A model generated the notes under the pieces. The model searched no databases. It saw nothing but the letters and a program-made list of their open reading frames with translations, and was not told the origin of the DNA. From Candidatus Nomurabacteria bacterium (GTDB lineage Bacteria > Patescibacteriota > Minisyncoccia > Phycocordibacterales > UBA918): DNA of 64,000 bases. The position numbers and the translations under genes were made by a program. Shown in pieces: positions 7,333 through 54,005 of the stretch; position 1 is the stretch's first letter; each line of letters starts with the position of its first letter. The stretch lies in contig CP060228.1 in the NCBI GenBank assembly GCA_023898565.1, positions 156,170-220,169 of the forward strand, written 5' to 3'.

Positions 7333-8961
7333 TCACGCGTTATCCTCAGTTCGTCGTTTATGCAGAAGGAATAGAATAAGCAGTACAAGTAACACTCCCA
7401 GCACAAGCGCAACTGATGGCCACCATGCAAAAAGTAAGTCTGGGAAAATCACCGGTGTTTTTGTTTCATCAATCGTTTCGATAAAGATTACTGGTGTTTG
7501 GTACGTACCAACTACAAATGCTTCATAATCGTAAATCTCTAAAATGAGCAGTGATTGACCCACTACAAACAAGGCCGGGATTTGTGCTTCATAGGCAGTT
7601 CGATCTCGATTGATGCGAAGCAGGAAAGAATACGTTTTTTCAGGATCGACTGGATTTTGAATCGTGGCAATAAGCGACTTCAAATTACCCGCGACCGCAG
7701 TCCGCGGCACAGACACGGTAAAGGCAGTAGCGGCATCAAGCTGAATTGGCGCGTCGGTAAACAAATACGTAAGATTCCCCTGAGCAACCAACACTTCAGA
7801 CAACAGAGGCATTTTCATTTCAACCGTGAACCGCTTAGTATCAATCGAAGACGTGGCATCATTCGTGTCCGGCACAGGCACTCCGATTATCGGCCCTTGA
7901 CCTGGTCCAGTCTGTTCAAAACCTGCGCCAGGAAATACAGTAGCCGCATATACAACAGCCACCGCTCCCGACGAAATATTGCCAAACTGATCATACACAA
8001 AAGCGGTGTAGTACACAGGCGAGTACTGATTAAGCACGCGCTCATCGGTGGCAGATTCTTTTATTCCTTGGTACACAATCGCACCATCCTGTGGATGTTC
8101 TGGGAACCCCAAATGACTGCGCACAATCCGAACGTGCGCAAGATCGGGCTGGCTAGGCAATTTCCATGAGAGCAGCACATTGGTGTCTACTGCAATCGCA
8201 CTAAATTGTTCAACGTTTGAAACCGCATATTGTCCTTCGTCTTTTACCGTAGTAAATGAACCTTGCTTGATTACAGTCGCAACTCCAAATGGAGTGTACC
8301 CAACAATTTCATACTCGTACTCGGTGCCTGGCTCAAGATCAGTCAAAAGCACCGTATGATCCATTGCAAATACACTACTCACCACATACCCAAGCTCATA
8401 CGATCCTGTTCTTCCCCATCGCACCTCGAGACGAGCCTGATGCGCAGTTGTCACAAGCAAACTAGTAGTAGACATACCGACATCAATCGCGATTGCTTCA
8501 GCTATTACACGCGCTGCGGTTCCACTCTGACCACTTACTGGTTCTGTAGTGGTGGCCACCGGCGGCACCACGGGTGGATTTGGTGTGGTAGTTGCTAGAG
8601 CATTTGAAGTAGACGAGTAATTAAATGATGGATCAAATGCTCGAACTACGTAGCTGTAGGTGGTGCTTGCAACCAAACCAGAGTCGGAATATGACAGTAG
8701 TGTAGTGGTCGCAATTGGGACGCCGTCACGCAAGACCGAATAACCTGACAACATGGTGTCGTCTGTTGCTGCAGACCAGGTAATATCAATTTGTGTCGAC
8801 GCAACCGGAATGACAGAAAGCAACGTTGGTGTAGTCGGCGGGTTAGCATCCACTCCACCGAACACACGCACTACAAAGGTTTCATCAGATTGAGCTGATG
8901 CAAAACTCGCGGCGGCAACAAAAAAGCAAACAATCAGTGCGCGTGTGATTAAATACTTCAT
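7333..8961 (-). CDS. Cell-surface protein with fibronectin type III-like domains and a C-terminal membrane anchor
   Basis: The start was set at MKYLITRALIVCFFVAAASFASAQ, a signal peptide (ATG whose complement is cat at 8959-8961). Fn3-like segments include TPTLLSVIPVASTQIDITWSAATDDTMLSGYSVLRDGVPIATT. The C-terminal hydrophobic helix WWPSVALVLGVLLVLLILFLL is followed by HKRRTEDNA. It is the last gene of the surface operon. Confidence 0.6.
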   Translation of the reverse strand: MKYLITRALIVCFFVAAASFASAQSDETFVVRVFGGVDANPPTTPTLLSVIPVASTQIDITWSAATDDTMLSGYSVLRDGVPIATTTLLSYSDSGLVASTTYSYVVRAFDPSFNYSSTSNALATTTPNPPVVPPVATTTEPVSGQSGTAARVIAEAIAIDVGMSTTSLLVTTAHQARLEVRWGRTGSYELGYVVSSVFAMDHTVLLTDLEPGTEYEYEIVGYTPFGVATVIKQGSFTTVKDEGQYAVSNVEQFSAIAVDTNVLLSWKLPSQPDLAHVRIVRSHLGFPEHPQDGAIVYQGIKESATDERVLNQYSPVYYTAFVYDQFGNISSGAVAVVYAATVFPGAGFEQTGPGQGPIIGVPVPDTNDATSSIDTKRFTVEMKMPLLSEVLVAQGNLTYLFTDAPIQLDAATAFTVSVPRTAVAGNLKSLIATIQNPVDPEKTYSFLLRINRDRTAYEAQIPALFVVGQSLLILEIYDYEAFVVGTYQTPVIFIETIDETKTPVIFPDLLFAWWPSVALVLGVLLVLLILFLLHKRRTEDNA

Positions 8962-8968
8962 CAACCCA

Positions 8969-9733
8969 TTATAACGGCAAAGCCGTGATTGTAGTGGTTG
9001 CGATATACACGCCATCTAATACCCCTGCCCCACTTCCGACACCCACTCGAAAGCGCACGGAAGTTGTCGCTCCACTTGGGTGGTTCGCTCCTGCGCCCTC
9101 CGCGATTACTTGAGCAGTCGTTGACACACCAGCCCAACACGCAAAAGCAGTATCTAGCGAGCCGGTGTTACAAATACCGCCGCCGTCTTTGAAAAACTGA
9201 GTTATATCAATCCCTTCGGGAGTGTATCCAAAGTACGCCTCGCCTGCCCCAACAGTGAAGGAGTAGTCTGGCTCAGCTCCCTCATTGTAATCGGCAATAC
9301 TATAGGGAGGGTTTTGCATAGCAGGATCGTTTTGTCCCTTGATTGTAAGCTGATAACCAGACGGACTATCAGTCACAACGGTAAACGTTGAGGATCCATT
9401 TGCTTCACCTCCGGTAATACCCGGAATTGACTGATCCATAATTACATTACCCGTGGTAGTCAAACCAATAAAGACCTCTTGCATTTGCTGATAGCCCGCT
9501 TTTAACATGTATGACGCGCTGCTCGATTCTCCTGTTGCAACTTCGCCAACGGTACTTTCACTGATGTATGAAGTAGACGTAGACAAACCACCACCCACAT
9601 TAAGACTATCACTCTGCAATTGATAGCTTGCGCTCGAGCGCACCTGGGCCAAACTCACATTCAGCAACAACAAGACAATCATTGTTGTTGCCCCCGCTTC
9701 AAATATGCTACGCAAAAGAACAGTTTTTTTCAT
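8969..9733 (-). CDS. Small secreted Ser/Thr/Gly-rich protein, paralog A of the surface cassette
   Basis: The signal peptide is MKKTVLLRSIFEAGATTMIVLLLLNVSLAQV. It shares a conserved framework with the 10826..11530 product: T.F.V.T....GY..TI..., then C..G......A..CW...STTA, then a C-terminal Y.ATTT. There is no confident family assignment. Confidence 0.5.
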   Translation of the reverse strand: MKKTVLLRSIFEAGATTMIVLLLLNVSLAQVRSSASYQLQSDSLNVGGGLSTSTSYISESTVGEVATGESSSASYMLKAGYQQMQEVFIGLTTTGNVIMDQSIPGITGGEANGSSTFTVVTDSPSGYQLTIKGQNDPAMQNPPYSIADYNEGAEPDYSFTVGAGEAYFGYTPEGIDITQFFKDGGGICNTGSLDTAFACWAGVSTTAQVIAEGAGANHPSGATTSVRFRVGVGSGAGVLDGVYIATTTITALPL

Positions 9734-9735
9734 GC

Positions 9736-10806
9736 TTACGCATCTTTTCGTTTAAATTCAAACGTACGGAAAAATGCTCTCACACTGAAAATTATAATAA
9801 ATAAAGTCAAAAACACGCCCCCGACAATCTTCCAAGGAAGCACCCAGAAGCTAACTGCCACCTCATCAACAATATCATTGTACCCACGATTAACCCGAGC
9901 AGTAACCGTATAACGTCCGAGTAAAAACTCTCGATTCCACTCAATTTCACGCACACGTAGCGATTTTGGCAATACAAACCAAGGTTCCAGCTCAACAAAT
10001 CCGACCTCTTCTCCAAACATGTTAGTGATTGAAATCTCACCGTATGGATTAAGGTGAACGGTACCAGTGTTTTCATATAAAATACCCATGTTAACCGGTC
10101 CCGACTCATACCACATCTTGTCATCAATCAAATCAATTGATTTAGTCTGTCCAGATTCATCGACCTCTCCTTTTACGCGAATGAAGAACAACGAACCAAC
10201 ACGAGCAATAATCGGAGAACGTGGCACCACTCCCTCGCCCTCTGCAGGGGCGGTCTGCACCGTAGATACCAATACGCTACCATAATACCCGCCTGGGCTG
10301 GTATTTGGTGGAACACTAATAGTGATCGGGATTCGTGCTCGTTCACCCAAATTAAGTCTCACCGTGTCTTCTGGGAATGAGATAAAATCACGCACACTAT
10401 ATGGCCCCTTTTTATCGCCAAGCAGCGTAACCGCTGAGCTTCCGTCAGCCGAACCCTCAACGTCCTCAATTTCTAGCAAATATTCTTTATCGTTAGCCAC
10501 ACGGTTGGCAACCGTGATTTCACGCACGACCGTTTGGCCCGGACTAAGTTCGATTTCTGTTCGACCAGGCCCAACCACAAAATCACCCACTTCGACATTA
10601 CCAAAAATACGTTCCACTTTATACCAATCAGTCACAGCTACTGTTTGTGTTGTAGTTGACGCGATAGCCTCGGTAGAGCTGGCAGCAGCCAGTTCATCTG
10701 CTACATCTGTACCGCCAATAGACTGCGCAAACACCTCTCCAAAGCAGAGAGGTGTGAGCATGAGAGTAAAAATAAACGCAACGAGAATCTGTGTTCTGGT
10801 AGTCAT
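9736..10806 (-). CDS. Signal-peptide plus C-terminal TM-anchored surface protein (central gene of the cassette)
   Basis: The start was moved to MTTRTQILVAFIFTLMLTPLCFGEVFAQS (ATG whose complement is cat at 10804-10806). The beta-rich ectodomain contains IELSPGQTVVREITVAN, an Ig or chaperone-like pattern. The C-terminal TM helix WKIVGGVFLTLFIIIFSV is followed by RAFFRTFEFKRKDA. The overall architecture resembles DUF916/DUF3324-type anchored proteins, but this is weak. Confidence 0.5.
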   Translation of the reverse strand: MTTRTQILVAFIFTLMLTPLCFGEVFAQSIGGTDVADELAAASSTEAIASTTTQTVAVTDWYKVERIFGNVEVGDFVVGPGRTEIELSPGQTVVREITVANRVANDKEYLLEIEDVEGSADGSSAVTLLGDKKGPYSVRDFISFPEDTVRLNLGERARIPITISVPPNTSPGGYYGSVLVSTVQTAPAEGEGVVPRSPIIARVGSLFFIRVKGEVDESGQTKSIDLIDDKMWYESGPVNMGILYENTGTVHLNPYGEISITNMFGEEVGFVELEPWFVLPKSLRVREIEWNREFLLGRYTVTARVNRGYNDIVDEVAVSFWVLPWKIVGGVFLTLFIIIFSVRAFFRTFEFKRKDA

Positions 10807-10825
10807 AGAGTGACTACAGAATAGC

Positions 10826-11530
10826 TTACTTAGCAATAACCGACAAGGTCACTGTTGCAGTATACCATTCTGCCTGTGGCACCGGAGTGGCACCACTCGG
10901 TACAGTGAGATTAAAGGTTACTGTTGAGGTGGCACCGGTCACCGCAGCAGCTGACGTGTCCATGATACGGAACGCTGTGGTACTCGGCGCCATCCAACAG
11001 CTTACTGCGCCGTTTTGTGAACCACCCAAGTTACAAGCGGCGCCGTTATTCAAGAATGACTGATCAAGATCTGAAGTAGAAGAAGCGGTCACGGTGTACG
11101 CAAATTGAGCTGAAGTACTAGCTACATAGCCGTAGGTTGGCTGTCCAATGGTGTATCCCTGGTAATCATGAATCGCATCACTAAGTGAGGTGTCTCCCTG
11201 CATTGCTTCCGCTGATCCATTATCAAAGAAATCGATCGTTACGTAATAGCCTGCCGTGTTGTTGGTTTGTACCACAAACTGTGTGGTACCGGTTGCTTGA
11301 CCACCAGTCACACCGTTCAGTGTACCAGCCATGGTTACGTTTGCTGGCGGCACCAAGAATGAGGTTTCGTCAGTGATCTGGGCTCGAACAGTAATATCTA
11401 CACTTTCGTCGCCGTGACTGATTGCCGGTTCGATTAGGAAATACGTCGCAAAAAGCGTCGCTACCATAGTGACACTAGCCCAGAAAGCAAATATTCCAGA
11501 CTGAGCAAAATGTTTAAGATTGTAATTCAT
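10826..11530 (-). CDS. Small secreted protein, paralog B of the surface cassette
   Basis: It has an N-terminal hydrophobic segment and shares the C...CW and STTA motifs and the C-terminal Y.AT.T ending with paralog A (AVSCWMAPSTTAFR versus AFACWAGVSTTAQV). Confidence 0.5.
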   Translation of the reverse strand: MNYNLKHFAQSGIFAFWASVTMVATLFATYFLIEPAISHGDESVDITVRAQITDETSFLVPPANVTMAGTLNGVTGGQATGTTQFVVQTNNTAGYYVTIDFFDNGSAEAMQGDTSLSDAIHDYQGYTIGQPTYGYVASTSAQFAYTVTASSTSDLDQSFLNNGAACNLGGSQNGAVSCWMAPSTTAFRIMDTSAAAVTGATSTVTFNLTVPSGATPVPQAEWYTATVTLSVIAK

Positions 11531-11632
11531 GATTAATTTGTTGCGTTTTTAACCTATTAATTATAGCAATTTTCTGCCACCTACGGCCCGTTTTGAGCTG
11601 TGCCTGTGTATAAAGTAAGCATACTATACACT

Positions 11633-14600
11633 TTAAATAGCCCCGCCGCCGCCGGCCCCGCCGCCGCCAACGTAGTGATACACCCGCACCTGAATCGCAT
11701 CAACCTGTACTGTATTGCTGGATGGATTACCCACAATGCGTACCGCAAAGTTAGCATTACTGAGCTGACCAGCACTCCAGCCATGGCCCCAGGTATCACT
11801 CGCACCGCCGAGTGTAATGACTTTATCAGCGGTCGTGAGTGTTGGTGTTGTCTTGGCACTAGTCCACGTGGTACCGCCGTCCCACGAGAGCTGAACACCA
11901 ATGTCGCCGGCGGCGGTAGTACCAGACACTTCGAGCTTCACTTCAATACCGGTCACCACACTACTGCCGCCAAGCGCATAGCCGTACGCTGAGTATGAAG
12001 AAGAGGCATTAGTGGTGTTGGTTGTCGCATAGGTGCCGTCGGTCTGGTCATAGGCATTGGCACCGGTAGTGAAGTCACCAGCATGAGCAGTTGGCCACTT
12101 GTAATTTGGATCATCCCCAATCTGTTCCCCTGCCTCTTCGGTGCCGCCAGTCTCGACCGAACGACCTTCTGGTGCCGAATCGCCGACAGCTGCACTACTG
12201 CCGCCTCCGCCGCTTTGATTGTTGCGATTGTGCTGCACTGAGTCGACAGTACCGTACACATCCTGTACTCCCACTTCATCCGCCACTGCCAGATCATCCG
12301 CATACAGCGCAAGCATCATAGCAGCGCCATTTTCCGGCGCATTCCAGTCTGCAATTACAAGGTAGTTCGTGGTAGTAGTAGAGAGGAAGTCAGTTGTGAA
12401 AACAATCGTGCCAGTCTTGTCATCAAGTGTGAAAACACCTGTACCACCAACCTGCTCATCGCCTCCGTCGTAGAGAGCGTCATTATTGTGGTCACGGAAT
12501 AAGCGAATATTTGAGAAGTCACTCGCATCAATCTTCTTCGCACCGCTGACGGTAATAGTGAGGTCGGTCACCGTAGCAGAACCACTCTCCGGGATAAGCT
12601 TGAAAGCAAAGAGTGCTTCATCAGTTTTGTTTTGGAAGTTAAAGGCATTATTCACTTGCGTGTCGTCATGATTTGTAATCGTGGTGGAACCAACAACGAG
12701 AGATGACGTGCTGAACGTCCAGTTGACATTGTTTCCGTAATCGACCGAATCAAGAGCAGCAACAGTCGACGAAGCGCCGCTGTCTTCTACATTTACATAT
12801 CGAACATTCAGCTGACTACCTGGAATATCGAGGTACCACTGCGTACCCTGCTCACTTGAGCGAAGCCACACAGGAGAAGAAGCACCGCCTTGCCAGTCTA
12901 CGCTCTCAAATGTACTCGTAGCGCCTGCCACAAACTGAGCAGATGTACTTGCAGTCATGGTAAACGTACCGGTTGTTTCTACCGGCATACCGAAAATGAC
13001 TGATTGGGTAGTTGTACCATCCTGCGACGTGTTTGAAATGGTGAGATCATAGAATGCACTGTCACCAGACAATGTACCCGTGGCGGTTTGTTGCGTAACA
13101 CCCGAGAAAATCACCTCTGAAGTAGAAGCTGCTAAGATGCCGTTGTTGGTATAATCTCCACCCACAGAAAGTGTCGCGTCAGTCAGGTTTAAGTAACCGT
13201 CGTTGGTCAGAGAATCTGAGACAGTTACTGTAGACGTACTAATTACAGTCGCATAACTGGTACTTGCGTTAGTCAGAGAATCAAGGCTTAATGCATCGTA
13301 GATTGTTAGCGATGGAGTCACGCTTCGCATCACATTATCATCACTCCAACCAACCGCCACAAAATAACTATCGCCATACACAACCGATTCCCAGCTGCCA
13401 AGACCCTCGCGAACAGTCCACGTAATACCATCTGGTGAGGTTATGACGCGATCTGCGCCTGCTCCAACTGCTACAAAGAGACCGTTGCCGTAAGCCACCG
13501 AGTTCCATGAGCCTGTTGTTGAACGCACCGTCCAATTGACACCGTCGGGTGAGGTCATGACGCGGTCGCCAGAGTACCCCACCGCTACAAAGAGACCGTT
13601 GCCGTAGGTGACTGATAGCCAGCTGTCGTTATTTCCGGCGGCTGAACGCACCGTCCAATTGACACCGTCGGGTGAGGTCATGACGCGGTCGCCGGAGCTG
13701 CCTACCGCCACGAAGAGACCGTTACCGTAGGTGACTGATTGCCAGCTGTCGTTATCCCCGGCGGCGGAGCGGACGGTCCAAGTGATGCCGTCGGGTGAGG
13801 TCATGACGACGTCGTCTGCGCCATTACTAGCCCAACCCACCGCCACGAAGAGGCCGTTGCCGTAGGTAACATCATACCAGTCATCATTATCCCCCGCAGC
13901 ACTGCGCGCGGTCCATGCCCCACCTCCACTACTCGGCGCCACCACCACATCTCCGAGTGCGTTAGCTCCCACCAAGTCACCCATCACGAGCGGATCTGGT
14001 CCAGTGAAGTAGGTTGTGCCACCGTTGTTATCAAAGGTGCCATTCTGGCTAAAGTCACCACCGATAGTCAGAAGACTTGGCGCGACCAGAGAGCCAGAGA
14101 TGGTGAGGTTTGAGGTAGACGCATTGTTTGAGGCAGTGTATGAACCCTCAATAGAGATGTCGCCTAAAGCTGAAGAGCCGGTGAGGGTGCCAGAGAGCGT
14201 TTTGCTGGTGCCGGTGAATTTTGCTAAACCACCATTATTATCAAACACTCCGCCGTCGTTATGGAATGAACCAGAGAAGGTAGATGACGCAGCATTTACG
14301 AAAGTGCTACTACTCCAAATATATAACTCCTTACCGTCTTCAACGGTAAGAGTGTCACCCGTAGTAGAGGCGGTGTATCCAATATCAGCATGTTGGCTTG
14401 CATCATACGTATCCAAATCAGCCAACGTAGTACTTGTTGCTCCCTCCTGACGTACAATTATCCGATTATTGTAGATATCAACGCCAGTTAGATTCTCAGT
14501 TGACGAGGCAAATTTTGACACAACAGTTCCTTCGTCAAAACCAGAATTCCAAATCCAGATAACAAATGGCGTGTCGACACCAACACCATTACTATTATCA

Positions 14601-14845: not shown

Positions 14846-14859
14846 ACAATTTTTCTTTA

Positions 14860-17800: not shown

Positions 17801-20800
17801 CTGGCAATTTCTATCAACGCATACGTCGACGTCGAATAAATACTATTTGCAACGATTGCGATGTTTGTGGTTTCTGCAATATCGATTGCAGGATGTGCAC
17901 CAGACAAACCTATTGAGTACAATTGGTTATTAGAAATGACATTGTTGGCAGCATTGCCGCCGTACCTACTATATGCAGCAATTGCGGCATGTCCAACATT
18001 CTCAATTTTGTTGTTAGAAATAGTGTTATCTGAAGCACCCCAACCTAGAAAGATACCGTTTGCACCAACAAAGCTGCCGAAGATGTTTCTGATAACATTA
18101 TTGCTAACAATATTATGTGAAGGAGCATAGCTATACGGAGCGTCAAAATAAATACCTGCACTAAGATTTGATAGCTGGTTACTCGAAATAACGTTGTACA
18201 TAGACTCCTCAGTTAGAGTAACACCCTTGCCAGTATTGGAGATAACGTTATTAGCAACATTAGAGTAAGTTATATTCTCGAAGTAAAGAGCACTGTCAGC
18301 ACTCGCCCACATTGTATTGTTCTGAATTGACAACCGACTCGAATTATATGCAGCTATGCCGTCCCAATTTTCACTAATGTTGTTACTAGCAACCTCCACA
18401 TCAGACGAACCGTCAATATCAATGCCTGCGATATTGTTATTCTTGATTCTTATGCGACTGGAAAGAAAAACGTTTATTCCATATATATGTTTATTATTTA
18501 TCACAAGAACATCAGTCGAATTGTTAACATCAGCACCATAGTTATCAACATTAACTACCTCAAGCTCAGATATGGTTGAGCTACTTGAATCACTGAGGTA
18601 CACCGCAGTTTGTGAACTAGATTGGTTTGCCTGATTACCATCAATTTTGAGACTAGAAATTGCCACTCGAGGAGTGCTGCTTGCTCTCAAAATAACCACA
18701 TCACCCAAATCGTTATTGTCCTTCAATTTAATCACAGTAGAAACTCCTTGCCCGATAAGCTGAGTGTTGGTCGCCATATTTATTGCGATACCTGGTGCGG
18801 TGGATGTAGAAACTTCAAAGTTACCAGCCAAGAGATACACCGTACCACCACCGCCATTGGCATACACATAATCAATCGCCTGCTGAATCTCAACTTCGTC
18901 ACTCGTACCATCAGCCACGTAGTCAGCATATGCCTTTTCTGCTGCTGGAGAGTCTGAGGCTGCCACCACCACGGAAGTGTCGCCTGCGGTATTGAGACAG
19001 TTTCCATCGGCAGTCTGGAAACATCCACCAGAGAGAGCGATACCATTGGTGAAAGTTGAGGTAGCTGTCGTAGATGCCACAATCGCTGTATTAAACGTAC
19101 TCGTCGCACTCGTAAATGCTCCAATCACATTCGCACCCACGGTGCTGCCAGTACCGAGCTTGAAAGTGTCGTCTGAATCATCAAGACCAAAGTAATAATC
19201 GAGTGCGTTACCATCAAACAAAGTAAAGGTGTCTTCAGCTAAGCCAGAGCCAAGCGTGTAGCCGCTCCCTGTTCCACCAGTAGAGGCGAGTGAAAGGATA
19301 CCAGAACTATCAACGCTCAGCTCTGCATAATTTGAACCATCATATGAAAGCCGGAGGCTGTTGCCTGCTCCGAAAATATCGAGCATCGCGCCAGGTGAAG
19401 CAGTACCCAAACCAAGATTGGTACCGTCGTACACAAAGGTGGAATCAAACGCGAGCGCTGAACCTGAGACATACGGAATCGCATTACTGGTATAAGACCC
19501 CGGCGTATCAGACAACCCTAAGAAAGTGCCATTACCAAGGCCGAGCGATGAGGTGGCAATGTCTGCCCAGGCGGTACCATTCCAGTAAAAAAGGTCACCG
19601 TAATTTTTGGTCATGGCCGCCACGTCAGACAATTCTTCAATAGAGTTGTCAGTCAAATTATCAGCCGTACGCGCTGTCTGTTGTGTTTCCCAAAAATTTG
19701 CTGAAGTTGTTGAGAAGCTATTAGCTATGTAATAACTACCCTCTTGACCATCGAATGTGCCCACCCAATCACCGCTCGTGTCGGACAAAAAGCCTAGACT
19801 AGAAGTTGCGACCCACTCCACACCCGCACCCGTAGTCTGAAGCACCTGACCAGTAGTACCTCGAGTAGCATTATTGTCATACACACCTCCCGTAAGAGCT
19901 ATATCGCCAGCTACTGATAGCTTGGCGTACGGTGAGGTGGTACCGATGCCGACGTTGCCAGTTGGAGTAATAACCGCTGCTGTACCAGAACCAAAAACAG
20001 AACTGTTGACATTAAATTCAATACCTTTTCCAGAACCTCCATGTATAGCAGTATTTGCAGTACTACCGTTATACCCAAACGCAGCACGATCATTAGTGAT
20101 ACCTATATAGTTTACATCCGTAATAGCACCGTAACGGTTGACATAGATATGCGAGCTAGTACTCGTTGTTTGTATACTACCTGACACGTCAAGCCTAGCA
20201 GTTGGTGTTGATGTCCCAATACCAACGTTGCCGCCCGAGGTGATGGTAAGCCGTGAAGTGTTATTGGTAATGAGTCGTAAATCATGATTTGAGAAGGTGC
20301 CTAGGAAGCCTTGGAAGTCCTCACTGCGTACATCAACTTTTACCTCATTGGTCGTATCAGTGAAGCGAGCGCCAGCATTTGTCGCGCCTGCAACATTTAA
20401 TAAGCGATCCATAGTAGTCGTGCCAATTCCTACTCTACCAGCAGCCGTCACTGTAAATAAATCATTCGAATTATAGTCCAGCAACGACAAAACATCGCCT
20501 GGTGCAATACTTCTAGTTTGCTGGATTGTTAATACTGGAGTGCCGTCAAAAGTATTAGCAATCATTTGATCAGCCTCATCGGAACGTAAGAAAGACGACG
20601 AGGCAACACCACCAAGCTTCATCGATTCGAAAGCGGCGGGCACTGCACCAAGTGGCTTGCGAGGTGACATCTCGCCGTCCCAGGCAGGCGCTCCAGTGCC
20701 GCCAATCTCCACACCCAAATAGAGCGTCTGACCGAAGTCGACACTAGTAAGCGGTGAAGTGGAGCCAAGCATTACGCTAAAAAGACCATTAGTGACTTGC

Positions 20801-21054
20801 ACTTGATCAGCGCCAGTGAGTGATTCGGTCCATACTGCCGACGTAGTAGCCTGACTGGTGCTCTGCAACAACCAAAAACGCATGTTGTACGAACCATCAG
20901 GCACTGCCACTCCTGAACTGTCGGTAAGCTTACCTTGGTAATTAATTTGCTGATTTGGCTCAGCAGATACAAAACTTACCGCAACAAACAAAGCAAACAT
21001 GGCAAGACTCATTGCCCTGGTCACTTTCTTGATTGTCGAATAAGCTAAAAACAT
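14860..21054 (-). CDS. Giant secreted surface protein (2064 aa): repeated GIGTTSP.AKL motif region, parallel beta-helix (pectin-lyase fold) repeats, and an acidic disordered C-terminal tail
   Basis: It has a signal peptide (MSLAMFALFVAVSFVSAEP). A motif is repeated at least seven times: GRVGIGTTTMDRLLNV, GNVGIGTSTPTARLDV, GNVGIGTTSPYAKLSV, LGLGTASPGAMLDI, LGLGTSSPAAKLSV, GIGTTSPWARFSV and GRVGIGTTSPAAKLAI. A long run of NNxI(S/A)xN beta-helix rungs follows (NNNIAGIDIDGSSDVEVASNNISEN...NNVISNTGKGV...SNNKIENVGH...). The C-terminal roughly 200 aa are rich in Pro, Glu, Thr and Ser. Confidence 0.65.
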   Translation of the reverse strand: MFLAYSTIKKVTRAMSLAMFALFVAVSFVSAEPNQQINYQGKLTDSSGVAVPDGSYNMRFWLLQSTSQATTSAVWTESLTGADQVQVTNGLFSVMLGSTSPLTSVDFGQTLYLGVEIGGTGAPAWDGEMSPRKPLGAVPAAFESMKLGGVASSSFLRSDEADQMIANTFDGTPVLTIQQTRSIAPGDVLSLLDYNSNDLFTVTAAGRVGIGTTTMDRLLNVAGATNAGARFTDTTNEVKVDVRSEDFQGFLGTFSNHDLRLITNNTSRLTITSGGNVGIGTSTPTARLDVSGSIQTTSTSSHIYVNRYGAITDVNYIGITNDRAAFGYNGSTANTAIHGGSGKGIEFNVNSSVFGSGTAAVITPTGNVGIGTTSPYAKLSVAGDIALTGGVYDNNATRGTTGQVLQTTGAGVEWVATSSLGFLSDTSGDWVGTFDGQEGSYYIANSFSTTSANFWETQQTARTADNLTDNSIEELSDVAAMTKNYGDLFYWNGTAWADIATSSLGLGNGTFLGLSDTPGSYTSNAIPYVSGSALAFDSTFVYDGTNLGLGTASPGAMLDIFGAGNSLRLSYDGSNYAELSVDSSGILSLASTGGTGSGYTLGSGLAEDTFTLFDGNALDYYFGLDDSDDTFKLGTGSTVGANVIGAFTSATSTFNTAIVASTTATSTFTNGIALSGGCFQTADGNCLNTAGDTSVVVAASDSPAAEKAYADYVADGTSDEVEIQQAIDYVYANGGGGTVYLLAGNFEVSTSTAPGIAINMATNTQLIGQGVSTVIKLKDNNDLGDVVILRASSTPRVAISSLKIDGNQANQSSSQTAVYLSDSSSSTISELEVVNVDNYGADVNNSTDVLVINNKHIYGINVFLSSRIRIKNNNIAGIDIDGSSDVEVASNNISENWDGIAAYNSSRLSIQNNTMWASADSALYFENITYSNVANNVISNTGKGVTLTEESMYNVISSNQLSNLSAGIYFDAPYSYAPSHNIVSNNVIRNIFGSFVGANGIFLGWGASDNTISNNKIENVGHAAIAAYSRYGGNAANNVISNNQLYSIGLSGAHPAIDIAETTNIAIVANSIYSTSTYALIEIASGAVDTTLASNHFENPNSTNYIADASASTRYNEWDRTTITTDSARGYNLFSIIGSTTATSAAITQLGAGDILTLDNASGRVLTMTNSGNLGLGTSSPAAKLSVAGNTWLDSNVINFASSSASSLLLHYFTAATSTVVNGDSFAWTIATSSSVSPIFRIDTSGSYANTLISGGFDVNNGAISYNAATNQTTIENLALGNMKFEDDAGVVTWTDMGVTAGASVGTVESYTAAIDGNSLLTLYGESDGAGSVTDLAVGIGTTSPWARFSVLGDATDATKPLLTVASSTGDALFHITNAGRVGIGTTSPAAKLAIQNTAFSGAGVVGLDQYLETQNSVLSAVQYGNRFFLDANNTATTTIVGSMIRLRDDTTYGNTVRTLEVQANRGANTYGENTAISAFARTFGVRAVTTGEAGDTYEPAAGFFETEGTAQGNAIRAYTDTLTTASLLSLFQSSSTFAGTGLEMNFGNGTGSFSSSTSKYLDFQNGGASVFTVSAYGTTTIGDGTTNHLAGLQIGFGGICVDNDGSCTASTSGRITSVESLTGNSDLAEMYFSSTNLEPGEVVVLDGELSIDRAEQGSDMPVLGVVSTKPGLLLGFDDSSLRAGERGYPLALSGRVPVKLSTENGPIKRGDSLMLSSLPGVAMKATGTGATIGIALEDFDDARKYSETYLNQFGDDMVEPVYEPIYTNLDPRLDDGCYYGGGNAVGDEPCVPLSATTTQGQIDEANHIAEAESVAEQMDALRDERSETKRLADGTAVKVGRVVMFVDRSYRWFDDSQLASLGTLFSTSSIETVGDNEDETIFDRLVTLANNFVDGVLSVFTLKADKVETSELCVDGVCVTADDLRTMLNTNSSAPVSSNNSPVTGEGSESSEEGAVSEPPTEVLPPNSATSTDEVATTTEEPPAPVETATSSSETEAEQGVPVTEAGEGLGDEVVAENEENIVITEDESLEVPEPPAADTTEADPVSATEEVEAESPHSEDAV

Positions 21055-21056
21055 AC

Positions 21057-21779
21057 CTACATATTTGAAGACGATACAGGCACCCTTACAAAAGGCACTT
21101 CATTACCGACTTGATTACCGCTTGCGTCCACCGGAACAATCACTTGCGAACCATCAGAAAGACTTCGAACCTCTACTGTGTCGGAAAATAATCGTTCTGG
21201 TCGTTCTGTATTGAGCCCTGCCGGAAAAAGAATGATTCCATGATCAATCTCGCCGAGCGATGCTTGCGTAAATTGAGCCGTATCTTTCTGAGCCTGAGTC
21301 GCCGGCCGCTTTGCTTCTGAAACAACCGGACTTACTTGAGTCAACTGGGCCGATTGCTGTACGGTCACCTTGTCGGCAAGTGACACGTGAGCATTCGAGT
21401 GTTTTAGTTGGTACGCCCCTTGCCCCGCAAGCAAACCAACCCCGAGCACAAATGCAGCGGCAAAGGCAGCCCGTGCGTTAAGGGAATGTGCCTTTTTAAT
21501 CTGTAGGGTGCGACGTTCTTCAACAGCCTCACGCAACTGACGCTCACGCTTCCTCTCTTGACTTAAAATCTTTTTTCGTACCTCTTGCTCAAGCGCAGCG
21601 TTTTCTGCGTACGACTTGAGTGAAGCGAGATCGACAAACCACTGTCGACCGATGTAAGAAGCGACAACTTTACCTTCACGAGCGAGGCGCGTGATGTAAT
21701 CACGCGAATACGTTGTCGACCGAGCTGCTTCCTTGATTGGATGCAGTACTTTTCCATCAATCTCGAGTGAGCTATTCAT
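21057..21779 (-). CDS. Membrane-tethered HTH protein (N-terminal excisionase/MerR-like HTH_17 domain, coiled coil, single TM, extracytoplasmic C-domain)
   Basis: The N-terminus IKEAARSTTYSRDYITRLAREGKVVASYIGRQWFVDLASLKSY fits the HTH_17 pattern (EaA..lgvs..tvyRl...G.lpa.kiGrrwrv....L). It is followed by a charged helix, a TM segment AAFAAAFVLGVGLLAGQGAY, and a tail of about 115 aa. It lies 2 nt upstream of the giant protein gene. Confidence 0.5.
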   Translation of the reverse strand: MNSSLEIDGKVLHPIKEAARSTTYSRDYITRLAREGKVVASYIGRQWFVDLASLKSYAENAALEQEVRKKILSQERKRERQLREAVEERRTLQIKKAHSLNARAAFAAAFVLGVGLLAGQGAYQLKHSNAHVSLADKVTVQQSAQLTQVSPVVSEAKRPATQAQKDTAQFTQASLGEIDHGIILFPAGLNTERPERLFSDTVEVRSLSDGSQVIVPVDASGNQVGNEVPFVRVPVSSSNM

Positions 21780-21862
21780 ATCGATTTAACTTTAATTATA
21801 AAGCTGAATCGACTACTCGAAGAACGTTTATATGTGTATAACTTTTACTACATTAATCACTC

Positions 21863-22975
21863 TTATTGACGCAAAAAATCGAGCAGGCTCGCCATCTGAA
21901 AAACAAGTCGAGAGTCAGAATTATCGTTCGTAACCGTAACCTGGAGGCTACTTAAAAATAGCAACACAACAACCACCAGTGCCATAACCGTGGCAATAAC
22001 CGGCGAAAAAAGCACCAAGCTGCTTGTGCGATAACTGGCTTCATCCAAAGTAACTGATTTTGGCGAAAATGAAGAGACCATCTTTTTATCAGGAACAGTG
22101 CCTACAACGTGAGGAATTCCTTTTTCAAGACTTACCTTGGTCAAAAAGTCTCCCGTCGGTAGATTTGCTGGAGTTTCAGCCATTTGCGCCTCTTGAACAA
22201 GATTTGCACTGTTCCTTATTCTTTTAGTTTTTCCAACCTTGGCTAAAGCTGTGTCAGTGCCATGAACATTAACATCCAAAGACTCGGTACTTACAGGTTT
22301 ATCAGATATATCTTTATTTTTAAAGATATTTCGTCTATCTGATGCGACATCTGGTATTGTCTCCGCTGATAAATCAGGCGCAGCAAGAGTCGCTTCTGCA
22401 TCAGGATAGTCTAGAACAGGTATTTTACCTGATAAAGCTACCTCTGGCATCTCTGTTGGAGCAAATGATGACATATGGTGTGCACGGCTGCTCGATATAC
22501 CTAGCTTTTTAGACTCAGCAGGTTGGATGTGAATGTACTTGGGTGGTCTTGTCTCTCGCTTAGTAAGCGTTGGGATAAGATTGCCGTGATCCGGTTCGTA
22601 TGTGACACGCAAGCTGCGCCTGGCACCATGCTGGCGTAGTTGCTGATCGGCTAGAATTTTAAGGGTGGCCGACTTCAAAGGAGTACCGGCGACGCTGCGC
22701 TGTAGAGATGGTTGAACCTGAGTGTGAGTGATATTAGCTGACTCTTCCGCTACAAATTCTGTCTGCTGCGTAGCCTCTCTTTTTTGGTGCCGACCCGCTC
22801 TGTACTCATCCATCGAAAGCGGATTAACATACCAGGAACGACCAACCAACCTAGCATCAATTTTCTTGTTACGGCAGAGTTGACCAACATAATCTGCAGT
22901 ATACCGAAACCGCTTGGCAATAACTGAAGCCCGCACATACTCAATACCATCAAGAACCACCTTGTCCATGTCCAT
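21863..22975 (-). CDS. Membrane-tethered HTH protein, paralog (HTH_17-like N-domain, long Ser/Thr/Pro linker, C-terminal TM)
   Basis: The N-terminus LDGIEYVRASVIAKRFRYTADYVGQLCRNKKIDARLVGRSWYVNPLSMDEY is paralogous to the 21057..21779 N-domain (GR.W[FY]V. motif). The TM segment VLFSPVIATVMALVVVVLLFL lies near the C-terminus. It is the first gene of the surface operon. Confidence 0.5.
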   Translation of the reverse strand: MDMDKVVLDGIEYVRASVIAKRFRYTADYVGQLCRNKKIDARLVGRSWYVNPLSMDEYRAGRHQKREATQQTEFVAEESANITHTQVQPSLQRSVAGTPLKSATLKILADQQLRQHGARRSLRVTYEPDHGNLIPTLTKRETRPPKYIHIQPAESKKLGISSSRAHHMSSFAPTEMPEVALSGKIPVLDYPDAEATLAAPDLSAETIPDVASDRRNIFKNKDISDKPVSTESLDVNVHGTDTALAKVGKTKRIRNSANLVQEAQMAETPANLPTGDFLTKVSLEKGIPHVVGTVPDKKMVSSFSPKSVTLDEASYRTSSLVLFSPVIATVMALVVVVLLFLSSLQVTVTNDNSDSRLVFQMASLLDFLRQ

Positions 22976-22984
22976 ATTTTAACA

Positions 22985-23020
22985 GAGAAAAAAATAATAC
23001 ACCTCTACTTAAGGTGTATT
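22985..23020 (-). terminator. Rho-independent terminator downstream of gatB
   Basis: The stem aatacacct / aggtgtatt (22996-23004 / 23012-23020) has loop ctactta. On the minus-strand RNA it is followed by auuuuuuucuc. Confidence 0.5.
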
Positions 23021-23045
23021 ACTTTCCAGCCTAGACGAGAAAAGC

Positions 23046-25640: not shown

Positions 25641-25991
25641 TTAGCGAGTGGTACTTTTGCCAATCCAGCGACTACCAACAGTACTCACCACACTCATAAG
25701 AAGTGACCCTAGAAGCGCATACCAGAAACCATCAACAGCAAACCCTTCGATGAACGAAGCTGCGAACAAAAACAGCAGCGCATTCAATACAAAAGCGAAC
25801 AGGCCAAGAGTGATGACCGTGATTGGTAGTGTCAGAACAAAAAGAATTGGCTTGATAATCGCATTTAAAAGACCGAGAATGATGGCAGCAATAAGTGCTG
25901 CGTAAAAATCGTCGACATGAATGCCTGCTACAAAATTCGCGATACACAGCAAGCCAAGTGCGTTAAACAGAAGTCTTAGAATAAGAGTCAT
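25641..25991 (-). CDS. DUF360 / Phage_holin_4_2-family four-TM membrane protein
   Basis: At 116 aa it has a duplicated pattern: ...GIHVDDFYAALIAAIILGLLNAIIKPILFVLTLPITVITLGLFAFVLNALLF...GFAVDGFWYALLGSLL. Confidence 0.55.
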   Translation of the reverse strand: MTLILRLLFNALGLLCIANFVAGIHVDDFYAALIAAIILGLLNAIIKPILFVLTLPITVITLGLFAFVLNALLFLFAASFIEGFAVDGFWYALLGSLLMSVVSTVGSRWIGKSTTR

Positions 25992-34161: not shown

Positions 34162-34166
34162 AATTC

Positions 34167-34934: not shown

Positions 34935-34937
34935 AGC

Positions 34938-38018: not shown

Positions 38019-38030
38019 AGTAATGACTAA

Positions 38031-39182: not shown

Positions 39183-39195
39183 ACGTAATTTTTAA

Positions 39196-40050: not shown

Positions 40051-40142
40051 ATTAACACTCTAAATTTATTTTTAGTTACAACCAAAAGAATCAGGTGGCT
40101 TTTTAAAAATAAGTCAACAAAAAGCTCTTTAATTTAAACTAA

Positions 40143-40859: not shown

Positions 40860-40880
40860 ATGTATAACAATATCATTCGC

Positions 40881-42532: not shown

Positions 42533-42582
42533 AATCTATACAACTTACCACGACTACATGAAGTAACAATCGTAGCTAAATG

Positions 42583-53999: not shown

Positions 54000-54005
54000 A
54001 GTTAC

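What the first reader, a model, noticed from the sequence alone, without database searches (positions are those of the whole stretch)
7333..22975. 15.6-kb uninterrupted operon of eight cell-surface genes, including a 2064-aa and a 1070-aa protein, headed by membrane-tethered HTH proteins
All eight genes are co-directional with gaps of 2-102 nt. The order is HTH-TM paralog, HTH-TM paralog, giant beta-helix protein, Asp-box propeller protein, secreted paralog B, anchored protein, secreted paralog A, Fn3 anchored protein. This is roughly a quarter of the window devoted to one surface module. If the organism is an episymbiotic CPR bacterium, this is the obvious candidate for a host-attachment or host-recognition apparatus. 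I know of no described system with this gene order or with its own dedicated membrane-bound DNA-binding proteins.
Basis: partly seen in the sequence, partly recalled or inferred. Interest (0 to 1): 0.75.

Follow-up and report, generated by a model that had tools for sequence, protein, structure and literature searches.

The report
Pam-like surface fibre locus, Kaiserbacteria
This gene block in an ultra-small (CPR) bacterium most likely builds a thin surface fibre, a stripped-down relative of the recently described CPR "Pam" pilus, next to very large, fast-changing sticky proteins and two membrane-bound DNA-binding proteins that may control it.

Summary
The block is not one uniform operon and is not without precedent.

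It is a conserved core plus a variable slot. The core g5-g6-g7-g8 keeps the same order in 80 fetched loci from other species genomes of the Kaiserbacteria/Nomurabacteria/Paceibacteria group.
- g7 and its paralogue g5 are small secreted subunits. g7 has a chaperone-usher-pilin-like fold, and all 80 g7 orthologues hit the NCBIfam model for the CPR pilus protein PamT.
- g6 is a two-Ig-domain, membrane-anchored chaperone homologous to Firmicute WxLIP and similar in fold to PapD-type chaperones.
- g8 is an Fn3 stalk with a C-terminal anchor, like PamR.

The giants g3 and g4 occupy a slot that is empty, differently filled, or moved downstream of g8 in other species. g4 also diverges between strains. 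In one orthologous locus, the g4 C-terminal domain is fused to the g7 subunit.

g1 and g2 are conserved HTH-plus-TM proteins. A conserved TTATACACA motif lies at fixed spacing upstream of the g5 promoter, and also upstream of the HTH genes.

Verdict: a new, minimal variant of the Pam / WxL-type usher-less fibre. Filament formation, regulation and host attachment are all inferred, not shown.

The parts
21863..22975 (-). g1: 370-aa cytoplasmic HTH_17-like domain, long variable linker, single C-terminal TM (316-351). Paralogue of g2 in the HTH domain.
   Evidence: HTH_17 E 0.08, weak; shared HTH block with g2; invariant W47; hydrophobic segment. An orthologue lies between gatB and the module in 13 loci.
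21057..21779 (-). g2: 240-aa HTH_17 domain (15-60), basic helix, TM (100-122), then an extracytoplasmic tail ending in the conserved FSDxVxV...PFVVVPV motif. This layout resembles a one-component transmembrane regulator.
   Evidence: HTH_17 E 3.6e-4; excisionase-type domain E 2e-3; 157 homologues; many carry PF12728 and are named 'excisionase family DNA binding protein'.
14860..21054 (-). g3: 2064-aa secreted giant. It has a fibre-like N-terminus with GxVGIGT repeats, a parallel beta-helix (about 840-990), and an acidic E/S/T/P-rich C-terminal tail. No membrane anchor. It is mosaic: its N-terminal (1-220) and C-terminal (about 1374-1930) regions recur in other species, with different middles.
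   Evidence: NosD/Beta_helix; weak Bdellovibrio MAT fibre N-terminal model; PDB 8ond bd2133, E 1e-4.
11633..14845 (-). g4: 1070-aa secreted giant with Asp-box-like repeats (about 300-510) and a conserved C-terminal region (about 717-1057) ending in a Gly-rich tail. No anchor. Hypervariable between strains.
   Evidence: C-terminal 717-1057 conserved in about 25 loci at 37-60% identity; N-terminal and middle parts variable; four SxDGxxW motifs; 91-97% nt identity between strains, against mostly 99-100% for neighbouring genes; the C-terminal domain is fused to the g7 module elsewhere.
10826..11530 (-). g5: 234-aa secreted single-domain pilin-like subunit. It has a signal peptide, a conserved N-terminal beta-strand-like segment (FTIxQTITxEISFLV) and a pilin-like domain with one invariant Cys pair. 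Candidate rod or adaptor subunit.
   Evidence: paralogue of g7; family consensus; C166 and C178 invariant; mutual HMM hits.
9736..10806 (-). g6: 356-aa WxLIP/PapD-like chaperone candidate. It has a signal peptide, two Ig-like beta-sandwich domains and a C-terminal TM helix (325-354).
   Evidence: 66 of 69 orthologues hit PF06030 WxLIP_PGBD, best E 1.4e-7; AF2 pLDDT 82.6; Foldseek: E. faecium WxLIP 9i1y/9i25 E 2e-12; CU chaperones CsuC, CfaA, Caf1M at E 1e-8 to 1e-6; profile against PDB: EfmWxLIP1 E 4e-5.
8969..9733 (-). g7: 254-aa secreted PamT-like subunit. It has a signal peptide, a very highly conserved N-terminal segment (30-86; SxNYxLQSDSxNxGGG...AGYQQMQE) that AF2 leaves disordered, and a pilin-like domain (109-254) with one invariant Cys pair. 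Candidate tip subunit.
7333..8961 (-). g8: 542-aa PamR-like stalk or anchor candidate. It has a signal peptide, a short conserved free N-terminal strand (FxIRV), a PPTTPT linker, an Fn3 domain, further beta-rich conserved blocks, a C-terminal TM and a basic tail.
   Evidence: fn3 E 1.3e-7; Pur_ac_phosph_N; 40-sequence alignment.
11560..11613 (-). Promoter-like region in the g4-g5 gap: the conserved motif TTATACACA (11613..11605), then 39 nt, then an extended -10 TGCTATAAT (11568..11560).
   Evidence: 40 of 103 motif matches in 1.26 Mb lie just upstream of g5; motif in 42 of 66 loci; motif-to-(-10) spacing 39-41 nt in 23 of 30 cases, while distance to the ATG ranges 62-127 nt.
21795..21841 (-). 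Promoter-like region in the g1-g2 gap: TTATACACA (21841..21833), then 32 nt, then TATAAT (21800..21795) within the conserved block GCTTTATAATTAAAG.
   Evidence: motif upstream of g2 in 7 of 13 loci; the -10 block is conserved.
22989..23027 (-). 17-bp-stem hairpin followed by a T run, between the gatB stop and the g1 start. It is terminator-like and suggests a new transcription unit starts at g1. The arms contain AATACAC, which resembles the motif.
   Evidence: a similar hairpin is present in L014, L027 and L038.

Best explanation
The block is a chromosomal surface-fibre locus of a Candidatus Kaiserbacteria (Paceibacteria-type CPR) bacterium. It has three layers.

(1) Core, g5-g6-g7-g8. This is an usher-less, sortase-less, chaperone-assisted fibre module of the Pam pilus / WxL-cluster kind. 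g5 and g7 are exported by Sec and held by the membrane-anchored two-Ig-domain chaperone g6. They are then joined by donor-strand-type beta-strand complementation. g7 (PamT-like) sits at the tip. g5 acts as rod or adaptor, using its conserved N-terminal strand. g8, an Fn3 stalk with a free N-terminal strand and a C-terminal TM, terminates the fibre and ties it to the membrane.

(2) Variable slot. Secreted, anchorless giant proteins (here g3, a beta-helix/tail-fibre-like protein, and g4, an Asp-box protein) are interchangeable, rapidly diversifying adhesin-type cargo. They are probably displayed on or next to the fibre. The conserved C-terminal domain of g4 probably docks at the conserved N-terminal peptide of g7.

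(3) Control. The HTH-TM proteins g1 and g2 are membrane-tethered transcription factors. They probably act at the conserved TTATACACA element centred at about -55 to -60 of the g5 promoter, and upstream of their own genes.

Shown here: gene content, homologies and folds, synteny, slot variability, the fusion protein, and the motif with its geometry. Inferred: polymerisation, the order of subunits, giant-fibre docking, DNA binding by g1/g2, and any role in host attachment.
For: - Core synteny. g5-g6-g7-g8 keep the same order in the 80 fetched species-level loci where contigs allow, and also in L089, L091 and L092. The block stays intact when what follows g8 changes from gap to a g3-like giant (L059, L074, L083, L086, L089).
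- g5 is a paralogue with its own conserved N-terminal strand and Cys pair.
- g6. The DUF916/WxLIP_PGBD model hits 66 of 69 orthologues. A profile search gives EfmWxLIP1 at E 4e-5. The model has pLDDT 82.6 with two beta-sandwiches plus a C-terminal TM. The best structural matches are WxLIP, including the WxLIP-WxL complex 9i25, followed by CU chaperones. This is the architecture the preprint describes for PamC/PamD.
- g8. Fn3 domain(s), a C-terminal TM and a conserved free N-terminal strand match the published description of PamR.
- Giants. Their termini are conserved and their middles variable. The slot is empty, or the HTH gene directly abuts g5, in 10 of 57 loci, and holds a giant in 36 of 57. 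g4 is 91-97% identical between strains, where the core genes and gap are 99-100% (rpe about 97%).
- The Pam preprint also reports a tail-fibre-like protein consistently co-located with pam operons.
- Control. An HTH-TM gene is present in every locus where the region upstream of the module is visible. The motif is enriched upstream of g5, g2 and g1, with fixed 39-41-nt spacing to the -10.
Against: - No filament has been observed for this clade.
- No two-domain major pilin like PamA or PamB is present, so the structure could be a short stalk or a non-polymeric complex.
- The PamT match is weak (45 bits against an equivalog cut-off of 240). It covers mainly the signal peptide, the N-terminal motif and the first strands.
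- g5, g6 and g8 hit no Pam-named NCBIfam model. Whether such models exist is unknown to me.
- M. amalyticus Pam proteins could not be fetched for direct comparison.
- The flanking housekeeping genes are equally syntenic across the clade. Adjacency of g1/g2 and of the giants to the core could therefore partly reflect general genome collinearity.
- The motif also precedes one unrelated small membrane-protein gene in the window. It appears on the opposite strand after tktC in 9 loci, so it is not exclusive to this locus.
- The g1 HTH hit on its own is weak (E 0.08).
Confidence: 0.55

Rival explanations
1. A non-polymerising, WxL-cluster-like cell-surface complex. g6 (WxLIP-like) holds one copy each of g5 and g7 at the membrane or wall by inserting a strand into them, and g8 is a separate stalk protein. 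No filament forms. The complex serves as a static docking platform or wall-binding adhesin.
For: The closest sequence and structure relative of g6 is WxLIP. WxL clusters typically hold one WxLIP plus two WxL proteins, one small and one large with N-terminal binding domains (PMC10599100). That matches one g6 plus g5 and g7, and it matches the 'large' g7-family members. There is no PamA/B-like major pilin. WxL systems have not been shown to polymerise.
Against: None of the 80 g7 orthologues hits the Pfam WxL model, and g5 and g7 contain no W-x-L motif. g7 does hit the PamT model, which belongs to an experimentally visualised pilus operon. The g7 fold matches are dominated by polymerising donor-strand pilins. 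g5 has the layout of a classical single-domain pilin with an N-terminal extension.
Confidence: 0.25
2. The eight genes are neighbours but not one system. g5-g8 is a self-contained surface module. g1/g2 and the giants sit beside it only because gene order is highly conserved in this clade, and because long surface genes accumulate at a permissive site.
For: The whole region murB-secA-obg-gatB ... gap-rpiB-rpe-tkt is collinear across the clade. Giants are absent from the slot in at least 10 of 57 loci. The core has its own promoter-like element. The motif is not exclusive to this locus.
Against: The fusion in the orthologous g7 position links the g4 C-terminal domain physically to g7, and a 2187-aa g4-like giant ends in a g7 module. 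Giants remain adjacent to the module even when they move downstream of g8. The same motif lies upstream of the HTH genes and of g5. A tail-fibre-like protein is also co-located with distant pam operons.
Confidence: 0.12
3. A degraded prophage tail or tail-fibre cluster, or an S-layer locus.
For: g3 has tail-fibre-like repeats and short matches to phage tail-fibre and baseplate proteins. The g2 HTH resembles excisionase-type domains. The g8 Fn3 matches part of a phage 'major tail protein' family.
Against: PHROGs gave no hits for g3, g4, g5, g6 or g7. The phage matches cover only 5-11% of g3. IMG/VR holds no relatives of g7. No integrase, terminase or capsid genes were seen among the flanking genes scanned; the flanks are housekeeping genes and occupy the same position in the fetched loci where they are visible. 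The window has no tRNA. The S-layer idea was not tested directly: no S-layer model appeared among the Pfam or NCBIfam hits, but no dedicated comparison was made.
Confidence: 0.02

Closest known systems
Pam pilus operon of Candidatus Mycosynbacter amalyticus (Saccharimonadia); Troman et al., bioRxiv 10.64898/2026.03.03.709456
   Same: A CPR-specific, Sec-dependent surface fibre system without an usher or sortase. It has a PamT-type single-domain subunit (g7 hits the PamT model in 80 of 80 orthologues). It has a PapD-like two-domain chaperone that keeps a C-terminal TM helix (g6, compare PamC/D). It has an FnIII protein with an N-terminal strand and a C-terminal TM (g8, compare PamR). The subunits carry paired cysteines. 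A tail-fibre-like giant is encoded alongside.
   Different: There are no two-domain major pilins (PamA at 55 kDa, PamB at 39 kDa, or PamE); only two small single-domain subunits of about 196 and 225 mature residues. There is one chaperone rather than two. The gene order and neighbourhood differ (gatB ... gap instead of ATP synthase/CorB/MFS). The lineage differs: Kaiserbacteria/Paceibacteria, which the preprint's main text does not name. HTH-TM genes and a variable giant slot are not described there. Sequence similarity is confined to a weak PamT match.
WxL gene clusters (csc clusters) of Lactobacillales, Enterococcus and Listeria: WxLIP (DUF916+DUF3324+TM) plus a small and a large WxL protein (PMC10599100; PDB 9i1y, 9i25)
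   Same: g6 is a sequence-level and structure-level homologue of WxLIP, with the same signal / two-Ig-domain / C-terminal-TM architecture. One such protein is encoded with two small secreted paralogous partners. Family members exist with large N-terminal binding domains in front of the conserved C-terminal module. AF2 for WxLIP predicts strand insertion into its partner.
   Different: g5 and g7 are not recognisable WxL domains (0 of 80 Pfam hits, no W-x-L motifs). There is no LPXTG protein. A g8-type Fn3 anchor is present. The host is a CPR bacterium. DUF3324 was not detected by sequence in g6.
Classical and archaic chaperone-usher pili (Pap/Fim, Csu, CupE, CFA/I)
   Same: Fold-level resemblance of g7 to incomplete-Ig pilins and of g6 to PapD-family chaperones. 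The logic of a tip adhesin (passenger plus pilin domain), a rod subunit with an N-terminal extension, and a terminator subunit.
   Different: No outer membrane and no usher. The chaperone is membrane-anchored. There is no detectable sequence homology (no Pfam PapD or fimbrial hits).
Bdellovibrio mosaic adhesive trimer (MAT) fibres and phage tail fibres (for g3 only)
   Same: An N-terminal fibre-like region (weak NF053851 hit; PDB 8ond bd2133 E 1e-4). Mosaic architecture with conserved ends and variable middles. Short shared modules with phage tail-fibre proteins.
   Different: The score is far below the family cut-off (26 against 60 bits). g3 contains a parallel beta-helix and an acidic tail. 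It lies in a chromosomal housekeeping context beside a pilus-like module.

Membership tests
Pam pilus system (CPR-type pilus) | A PamT-family subunit recognised by NCBIfam NF058579 | tested here: inconclusive
   Significant homology: window g7 E 8.5e-12, and all 80 orthologues hit (best E 1.2e-14). The score is 45 bits against the 240-bit equivalog cut-off, and the match covers model positions 10-129 of 241 only. g7 is a homologue, not an equivalog.
Pam pilus system (CPR-type pilus) | Two-domain major pilins (PamA/PamB: N-terminal nine-strand sandwich, linker donor strand, C-terminal truncated Ig; 39-55 kDa) | tested here: not met
   The only pilin-like genes in the block are g5 and g7, which are single-domain (about 196 and 225 mature residues). 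HMMs of the g5 and g7 families find no other copy in the window. Direct comparison with PamA/B sequences was not possible.
Pam pilus system (CPR-type pilus) | A PapD/FimC-like two-domain chaperone that retains a C-terminal TM helix (PamC/PamD) | tested here: met
   The g6 AF2 model (pLDDT 82.6) has two beta-sandwich domains plus a helix at 325-354. Foldseek hits CU chaperones CsuC, CfaA, Caf1M, CupB2, DraB and EcpB at E 1e-8 to 1e-6. This is an architectural match only. Homology to PamC/D themselves was not testable.
Pam pilus system (CPR-type pilus) | An FnIII-containing protein with an extra N-terminal strand and a C-terminal TM (PamR) | tested here: met
   g8 has fn3 (E 1.3e-7), a conserved FxIRV strand directly after the signal peptide, and a C-terminal TM. 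This is an architectural match only. g8 appears to carry more beta-rich blocks than the two FnIII domains described for PamR.
Pam pilus system (CPR-type pilus) | Assembly into a donor-strand-exchanged extracellular filament | not testable with these tools
   This needs complex prediction (structure-prediction cap reached) or cryo-EM/cryo-ET.
WxL cluster (Firmicutes) | A WxLIP protein: DUF916 (PF06030) + DUF3324 (PF11797) + C-terminal TM | tested here: inconclusive
   DUF916 hits 66 of 69 orthologues (best E 1.4e-7), but the window protein scores 17.7-17.8 bits against the 27.3 cut-off. EfmWxLIP1 is the top PDB hit both by profile (E 4e-5) and by fold (E 2e-12). The TM is present. DUF3324 was not detected by sequence.
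WxL cluster (Firmicutes) | At least two WxL-domain proteins (PF13731, dual W-x-L motif) | tested here: not met
   None of the 80 g7 orthologues hits a WxL model. The window g5 has no WxL hit. g5 and g7 contain no W-x-L motif.
Chaperone-usher pili | An outer-membrane usher | tested here: not met
   None of the eight products or the neighbours scanned has an usher-like Pfam hit.
Chaperone-usher pili | Pilin with an incomplete Ig fold, plus a PapD-family chaperone | tested here: inconclusive
   There is fold-level similarity only. No sequence-family hit was found.
Prophage tail module | Several phage structural gene families in a phage genome context | tested here: not met
   PHROGs gave no hits for g3-g7. 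g3 shares at most 11% coverage with phage proteins. IMG/VR has no relatives. The flanks are housekeeping genes.
Bdellovibrio MAT fibre family (g3) | An N-terminal MAT domain at the NF053851 cut-off | tested here: not met
   g3 scores 26 bits against a cut-off of 60. There is a weak match to PDB 8ond (E 1e-4).

The most novel reading that the evidence does not exclude
Pam pili, Firmicute WxL clusters and this Paceibacteria-type module are one ancient superfamily of usher-less, membrane-anchored-chaperone fibres in bacteria without an outer membrane. In this minimal form, single-domain subunits (g5 as rod, g7 as tip) present separately encoded, hypervariable giant adhesins. These are captured non-covalently by the invariant N-terminal peptide of g7. 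In some lineages they are fused to g7 instead. The whole system is switched by a membrane-spanning HTH sensor (g2 type) that binds TTATACACA at about -55 of the fibre promoter and of its own gene.
Probability: 0.25. Interest if true: 0.8.

Novelty: new variant of a known kind. Interest (0 to 1): 0.6.

Why it matters
- Paceibacteria/Parcubacteria are the largest CPR class, and almost nothing is known about how they contact other cells. This locus is conserved at a fixed chromosomal position: 148 species genomes encode a g7 relative, and the 80 loci fetched share the gene order. It offers concrete candidates for a surface fibre, its chaperone, its anchor, its exchangeable adhesins and its regulators.
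- The locus extends the Pam pilus concept, described in 2026, to a lineage and a subunit composition that the preprint does not describe.
- Through g6 it links Pam-type chaperones to the WxLIP proteins of Firmicute WxL clusters. If that link holds, WxL loci would be reinterpreted as strand-complementation systems.
- The variable giant slot with strain-level divergence is a plausible determinant of host or substrate specificity.
- The conserved motif gives a directly testable regulatory hypothesis, in organisms where essentially no transcription factor-operator pairs are known.

Tried and rejected
- **Prophage or tail-module origin: rejected**.
- **tRNA, Rfam elements or mobile-element boundaries around the block:** none found. 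GC content of the block (0.45-0.53) is like the rest of the window, apart from the separate low-GC glycan cluster.
- **g5/g7 as WxL domains: rejected** at sequence level.
- **Pilin-like domain hidden inside g3 or g4, or inside giants of the 80 loci:** none found with the family HMMs.
- **Sequence search of g5, g7 and the g7 profile against the PDB:** found nothing useful, and no Pam pilin entry.
- **NCBIfam scans of the g5, g6 and g8 families for other Pam-named models:** no hits.
- **The motif as a protein-binding palindrome:** the inverted repeat GTGTATA...TATACAC in the window is not conserved in spacing or presence in other loci. I therefore treat the single 9-mer as the conserved unit.
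- **The motif as a generic promoter element:** it is absent upstream of most other genes in the 80 loci, although it is not exclusive to this locus.
- **Fetching the M. amalyticus pam operon for direct comparison:** not possible.
- **The 520-610-aa 'g6-g7' database proteins** look like read-through or merged gene calls. They retain the g7 signal peptide, so I did not use them as evidence of true fusion.

Full report
**1. Observation**

The eight ORFs are real and lie on the minus strand exactly where stated. Public gene calls for the identical DNA use slightly later starts for g6 (356 aa) and g8 (542 aa), which removes the apparent overlaps. The gaps are then gatB-70-g1-83-g2-2-g3-14-g4-102-g5-19-g6-2-g7-7-g8-62-gap.

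- g1 has a single C-terminal TM and g2 a mid-protein TM.
- g3, g4, g5 and g7 have only an N-terminal signal-like segment.
- g6 and g8 have a signal plus a C-terminal TM.

Pfam confirms a parallel beta-helix in g3 and Fn3 in g8. g4 has four SxDGxxW motifs at about 40-residue spacing. g5 and g7 are paralogues (E 7e-17). g1 and g2 share an HTH_17-like N-terminal domain.

Co-directionality by itself means little here. Nearly all long ORFs in the window are on the minus strand, and the GC skew is uniformly negative.

**2. Organism and context**

The exact g7 protein is recorded as a hypothetical protein of Candidatus Kaiserbacteria bacterium (MCA9358319.1, USN88947.1) and occurs on a contig of 951,832 bp. 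The identical locus is present in several metagenome assemblies. The flanks are housekeeping genes: murB, secA, a holin-family gene, obg and gatB upstream, and gap, rpiB, rpe and a split transketolase downstream. The window contains no tRNA and no Rfam element.

**3. Synteny across species**

A scan of one genome per species found 148 genomes that encode a g7 relative, and 80 loci were fetched. All but two carry CPR/Patescibacteria-type record names; the two exceptions (L058, L066) are labelled Acidimicrobiales and Nanoarchaeia.

ORF-by-ORF BLAST gives one consensus map: secA-holin-obg-gatB-g1-g2-[variable]-g5-g6-g7-g8-gap-rpiB-rpe-tktN-tktC. The core g5-g6-g7-g8 is invariant wherever the contig allows it to be seen.

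The giants are not invariant. Among 57 loci with at least 1.5 kb of sequence upstream of g5:
- 36 have a giant ORF next to g5 (25 g4-like, 9 g3-like, 2 unrelated);
- 10 have the HTH gene directly abutting g5;
- the rest have something else or nothing.

In L059, L074, L083, L086 and L089 a g3-like giant follows g8 instead. More distant loci carry a single HTH-TM gene of the g2 type.

The giants are mosaics. The g4 C-terminal region (about 717-1057) recurs at 37-60% identity in about 25 loci behind quite different N-terminal parts. g3-like proteins share the N-terminus (1-220) and/or the region 1374-1930.

Within the species itself, g4 drops to 91-97% nucleotide identity in assemblies where g5-g8 and gap are 99-100% identical (rpe about 97%). 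Several public contigs also break inside the giant genes.

**4. What the core proteins are**

*g7.* It hits NCBIfam NF058579, 'CPR-type pilus protein PamT' (E 8.5e-12). So do all 80 orthologues (best E 1.2e-14), although far below the equivalog cut-off.

That model derives from a 2026 preprint (10.64898/2026.03.03.709456). The preprint solved two filaments of Ca. Mycosynbacter amalyticus and defined a pam operon with these parts:
- two-domain pilins PamA, PamB and PamE joined by donor-strand exchange;
- a single-domain tip pilin, PamT;
- PapD-like chaperones PamC and PamD that keep a C-terminal TM helix;
- PamR, an FnIII protein with an extra N-terminal strand and a C-terminal TM.
It also reports a co-located tail-fibre-like protein.

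The AF2 model of g7 has a reasonably confident beta domain (residues 109-254, pLDDT 70-87). The N-terminal stretch 25-108 is disordered, even though residues 29-86 are the most conserved part of the family.

- Foldseek: PapA, the PapG pilin domain (probability 0.98), PapE, CfaB, FimF/G/A, CsuA/B, TasA and TLP;
The scores are moderate but the pattern is consistent.

*g5.* It shares the domain and the invariant Cys pair with g7. It replaces the g7 N-terminal segment with a conserved strand-like FTIxQTITxEISFLV.

*g6.* The model is good (pLDDT 82.6): two beta-sandwich domains and a C-terminal TM helix. Its best structural matches are E. faecium WxLIP, free and bound to a long WxL protein (9i1y, 9i25; E about 2e-12). 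RbmA follows, and then the chaperone-usher chaperones CsuC, CfaA, Caf1M, CupB2, DraB and EcpB. Homology to WxLIP is also visible in sequence: 66 of 69 orthologues hit PF06030, and the family profile hits EfmWxLIP1 at E 4e-5.

*g8.* It has a conserved short strand (FxIRV) right after the signal peptide, a PPTTPT linker, an Fn3 domain, further beta-rich conserved blocks and a TM.

Each of the four core genes therefore matches one role described for the Pam system. However, the two-domain major pilins are missing, and only one chaperone is present.

**5. Relation to WxL clusters**

WxL clusters typically encode one WxLIP plus one small and one large WxL protein. AF2 there predicts insertion of a WxLIP strand into WxL (PMC10599100).

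The parallel with one g6 plus g5 and g7 is striking. Even so, g5 and g7 are not recognisable WxL domains (0 of 80 Pfam hits, no W-x-L motifs, no LPXTG partner). The Pam preprint's main text does not mention WxL, HTH proteins, Paceibacteria or Kaiserbacteria. The g6-WxLIP link and this lineage are therefore additions to what that paper describes.

**6. Link between the giants and the core**

An exhaustive profile search with the g7 family found 1253 representative clusters at E <= 1e-3. Many are 330-670 aa, and some are giant (2187 and 1205 aa). In these, the g7 module, starting at about residue 30, forms the C-terminus behind unrelated passenger domains. In others, extra domains are inserted between the N-terminal motif and the pilin domain. 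This is the architecture of a tip adhesin: passenger plus pilin domain.

One such protein, P0318, carries a domain homologous to the g4 C-terminal domain directly in front of the mature g7 module. A profile of 28 g4 C-terminal domains hits P0318 at E 1.5e-13 with Z set to 1e6. In P0257 the same domain is inserted within the module (E 1.5e-7).

Its locus, L089, reads obg-gatB-HTH-g5-g6-P0318-g8-giant, so the fusion sits in the orthologous g7 position. This is Rosetta-stone-type evidence that the g4 C-terminal domain and the g7 N-terminus belong together physically. It does not prove docking in the window organism.

**7. Regulation**

Three features break up the 'single operon' picture:
- A 17-bp-stem hairpin with a T run lies between gatB and g1.
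- The 102-nt g4-g5 gap holds TTATACACA, followed 39 nt later by an extended -10, TGCTATAAT.
- The g1-g2 gap holds the same 9-mer, followed 32 nt later by TATAAT.

Across 1.26 Mb of related loci (both strands), the pattern TTATNC[AC]CA occurs 103 times. Forty of these lie just upstream of g5, and further ones lie upstream of g2 and g1.

With a slightly looser pattern, the motif is present upstream of g5 in 42 of 66 loci. Its distance to a -10-like element clusters at 39-41 nt (23 of 30 cases), while its distance to the start codon ranges from 62 to 127 nt. It is found upstream of g1 in 8 of 15 loci and upstream of g2 in 7 of 13 loci.

This is a phylogenetic footprint with fixed promoter geometry, spanning roughly -53 to -61. 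That position is typical of an activator site or an UP-like element.

The g2-type protein has a cytoplasmic HTH, one TM and a conserved extracytoplasmic tail. Its family is restricted to this clade and is often annotated as an excisionase-family DNA-binding protein. It is the obvious candidate binder, but this is inference only. The motif also precedes a small membrane-protein gene elsewhere in the window, and it occurs on the opposite strand after tktC in nine loci.

**8. Rivals**

- *Static WxL-like complex.* This cannot be excluded, because no major two-domain pilin is present and no polymerisation has been shown.
- *Mere neighbourhood.* General collinearity of the clade supports this reading. 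The fusion, the persistent adjacency of giants when they move, and the shared motif argue against it.
- *Prophage tail.* This is rejected. The S-layer alternative was not tested directly.

**9. Verdict**

It consists of a conserved four-gene fibre core related to Pam pili and WxL clusters, a hypervariable giant-adhesin slot, and conserved membrane-tethered HTH proteins with an operator-like motif.

I classify it as a new variant of a known kind. Interest is moderate to high, because of three points: it extends Pam-type fibres to the largest CPR class in a minimal form, it links them to WxLIP, and it yields directly testable hypotheses on assembly, display and regulation.

Noticed in passing
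window 11605-11613, 21833-21841, 59302-59310 (all minus strand); loci L007-L088: A conserved 9-mer TTATACACA (general form TTATNC[AC]CA) lies at fixed 39-41-nt spacing upstream of a -10-like box in front of g5 in dozens of species. It also lies upstream of the HTH genes. It is a candidate operator or promoter element in a phylum where almost none are known.
   Followed up: yes
window 59011-59253 (minus strand) and downstream genes 52614-59007: The third exact motif copy, followed by a TTATACT -10-like box, precedes an unannotated 80-codon ORF predicted to have two TM segments. After it come a DUF4015 glycosyl-hydrolase-like gene, an L,D-transpeptidase/D-Ala-D-Ala carboxypeptidase fusion, a TrwB/TraG-like coupling ATPase and an LTD+PKD surface protein. 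These could belong to the same envelope regulon.
   Followed up: partly
window about 32000-42600: A low-GC island (0.34-0.42, against 0.45-0.52 elsewhere) full of glycosyltransferases, methyltransferases and a flippase-like gene on the opposite strand. It sits next to a Wzy_C+TPR O-antigen-ligase-like gene (30207-32429). This looks like a horizontally acquired or fast-evolving surface-glycan cluster.
   Followed up: no
L002-L006, L087, L088 (contig ends): Public assemblies of this and related organisms repeatedly break inside the giant genes g3 and g4. This fits repeats and strain heterogeneity there. g4 is 91-97% identical between strains, while its neighbours are mostly 99-100%.
   Followed up: partly
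database proteins P0248, P0254, P0258 and others: Some 520-610-aa database entries join a g6-like and a complete g7-like sequence, including the g7 signal peptide. They are probably merged gene calls across the 2-nt g6-g7 gap rather than true fusions.
   Followed up: no
P0242, P0257, P0334, P0375: The g7 family tolerates large insertions between its N-terminal motif and the pilin domain. By eye, the P0242 insert looks like a LamG/DUF2341-type lectin domain, though no domain search was run on it. The module also occurs at the C-terminus of 1205-aa and 2187-aa proteins with Fn3-like or g4-like segments.
   Followed up: partly
window 25641-25991 (minus strand): A Phage_holin_4_2 family membrane protein (E 2e-33) is conserved between secA and obg across the clade. 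It is therefore a chromosomal gene rather than a prophage remnant.
   Followed up: no
window 3188-5102: Transketolase is encoded as two separate genes, for the N-terminal and C-terminal halves. This split is conserved in all related loci.
   Followed up: no
PDB 9i1y / 9i25 (released 2026-01-28): Solved structures of E. faecium WxLIP, alone and bound to a long WxL protein, exist. No paper describing them was found in the searchable library. They would allow a direct test of whether WxLIP-WxL binding is strand complementation, as in Pam and chaperone-usher systems.
   Followed up: no
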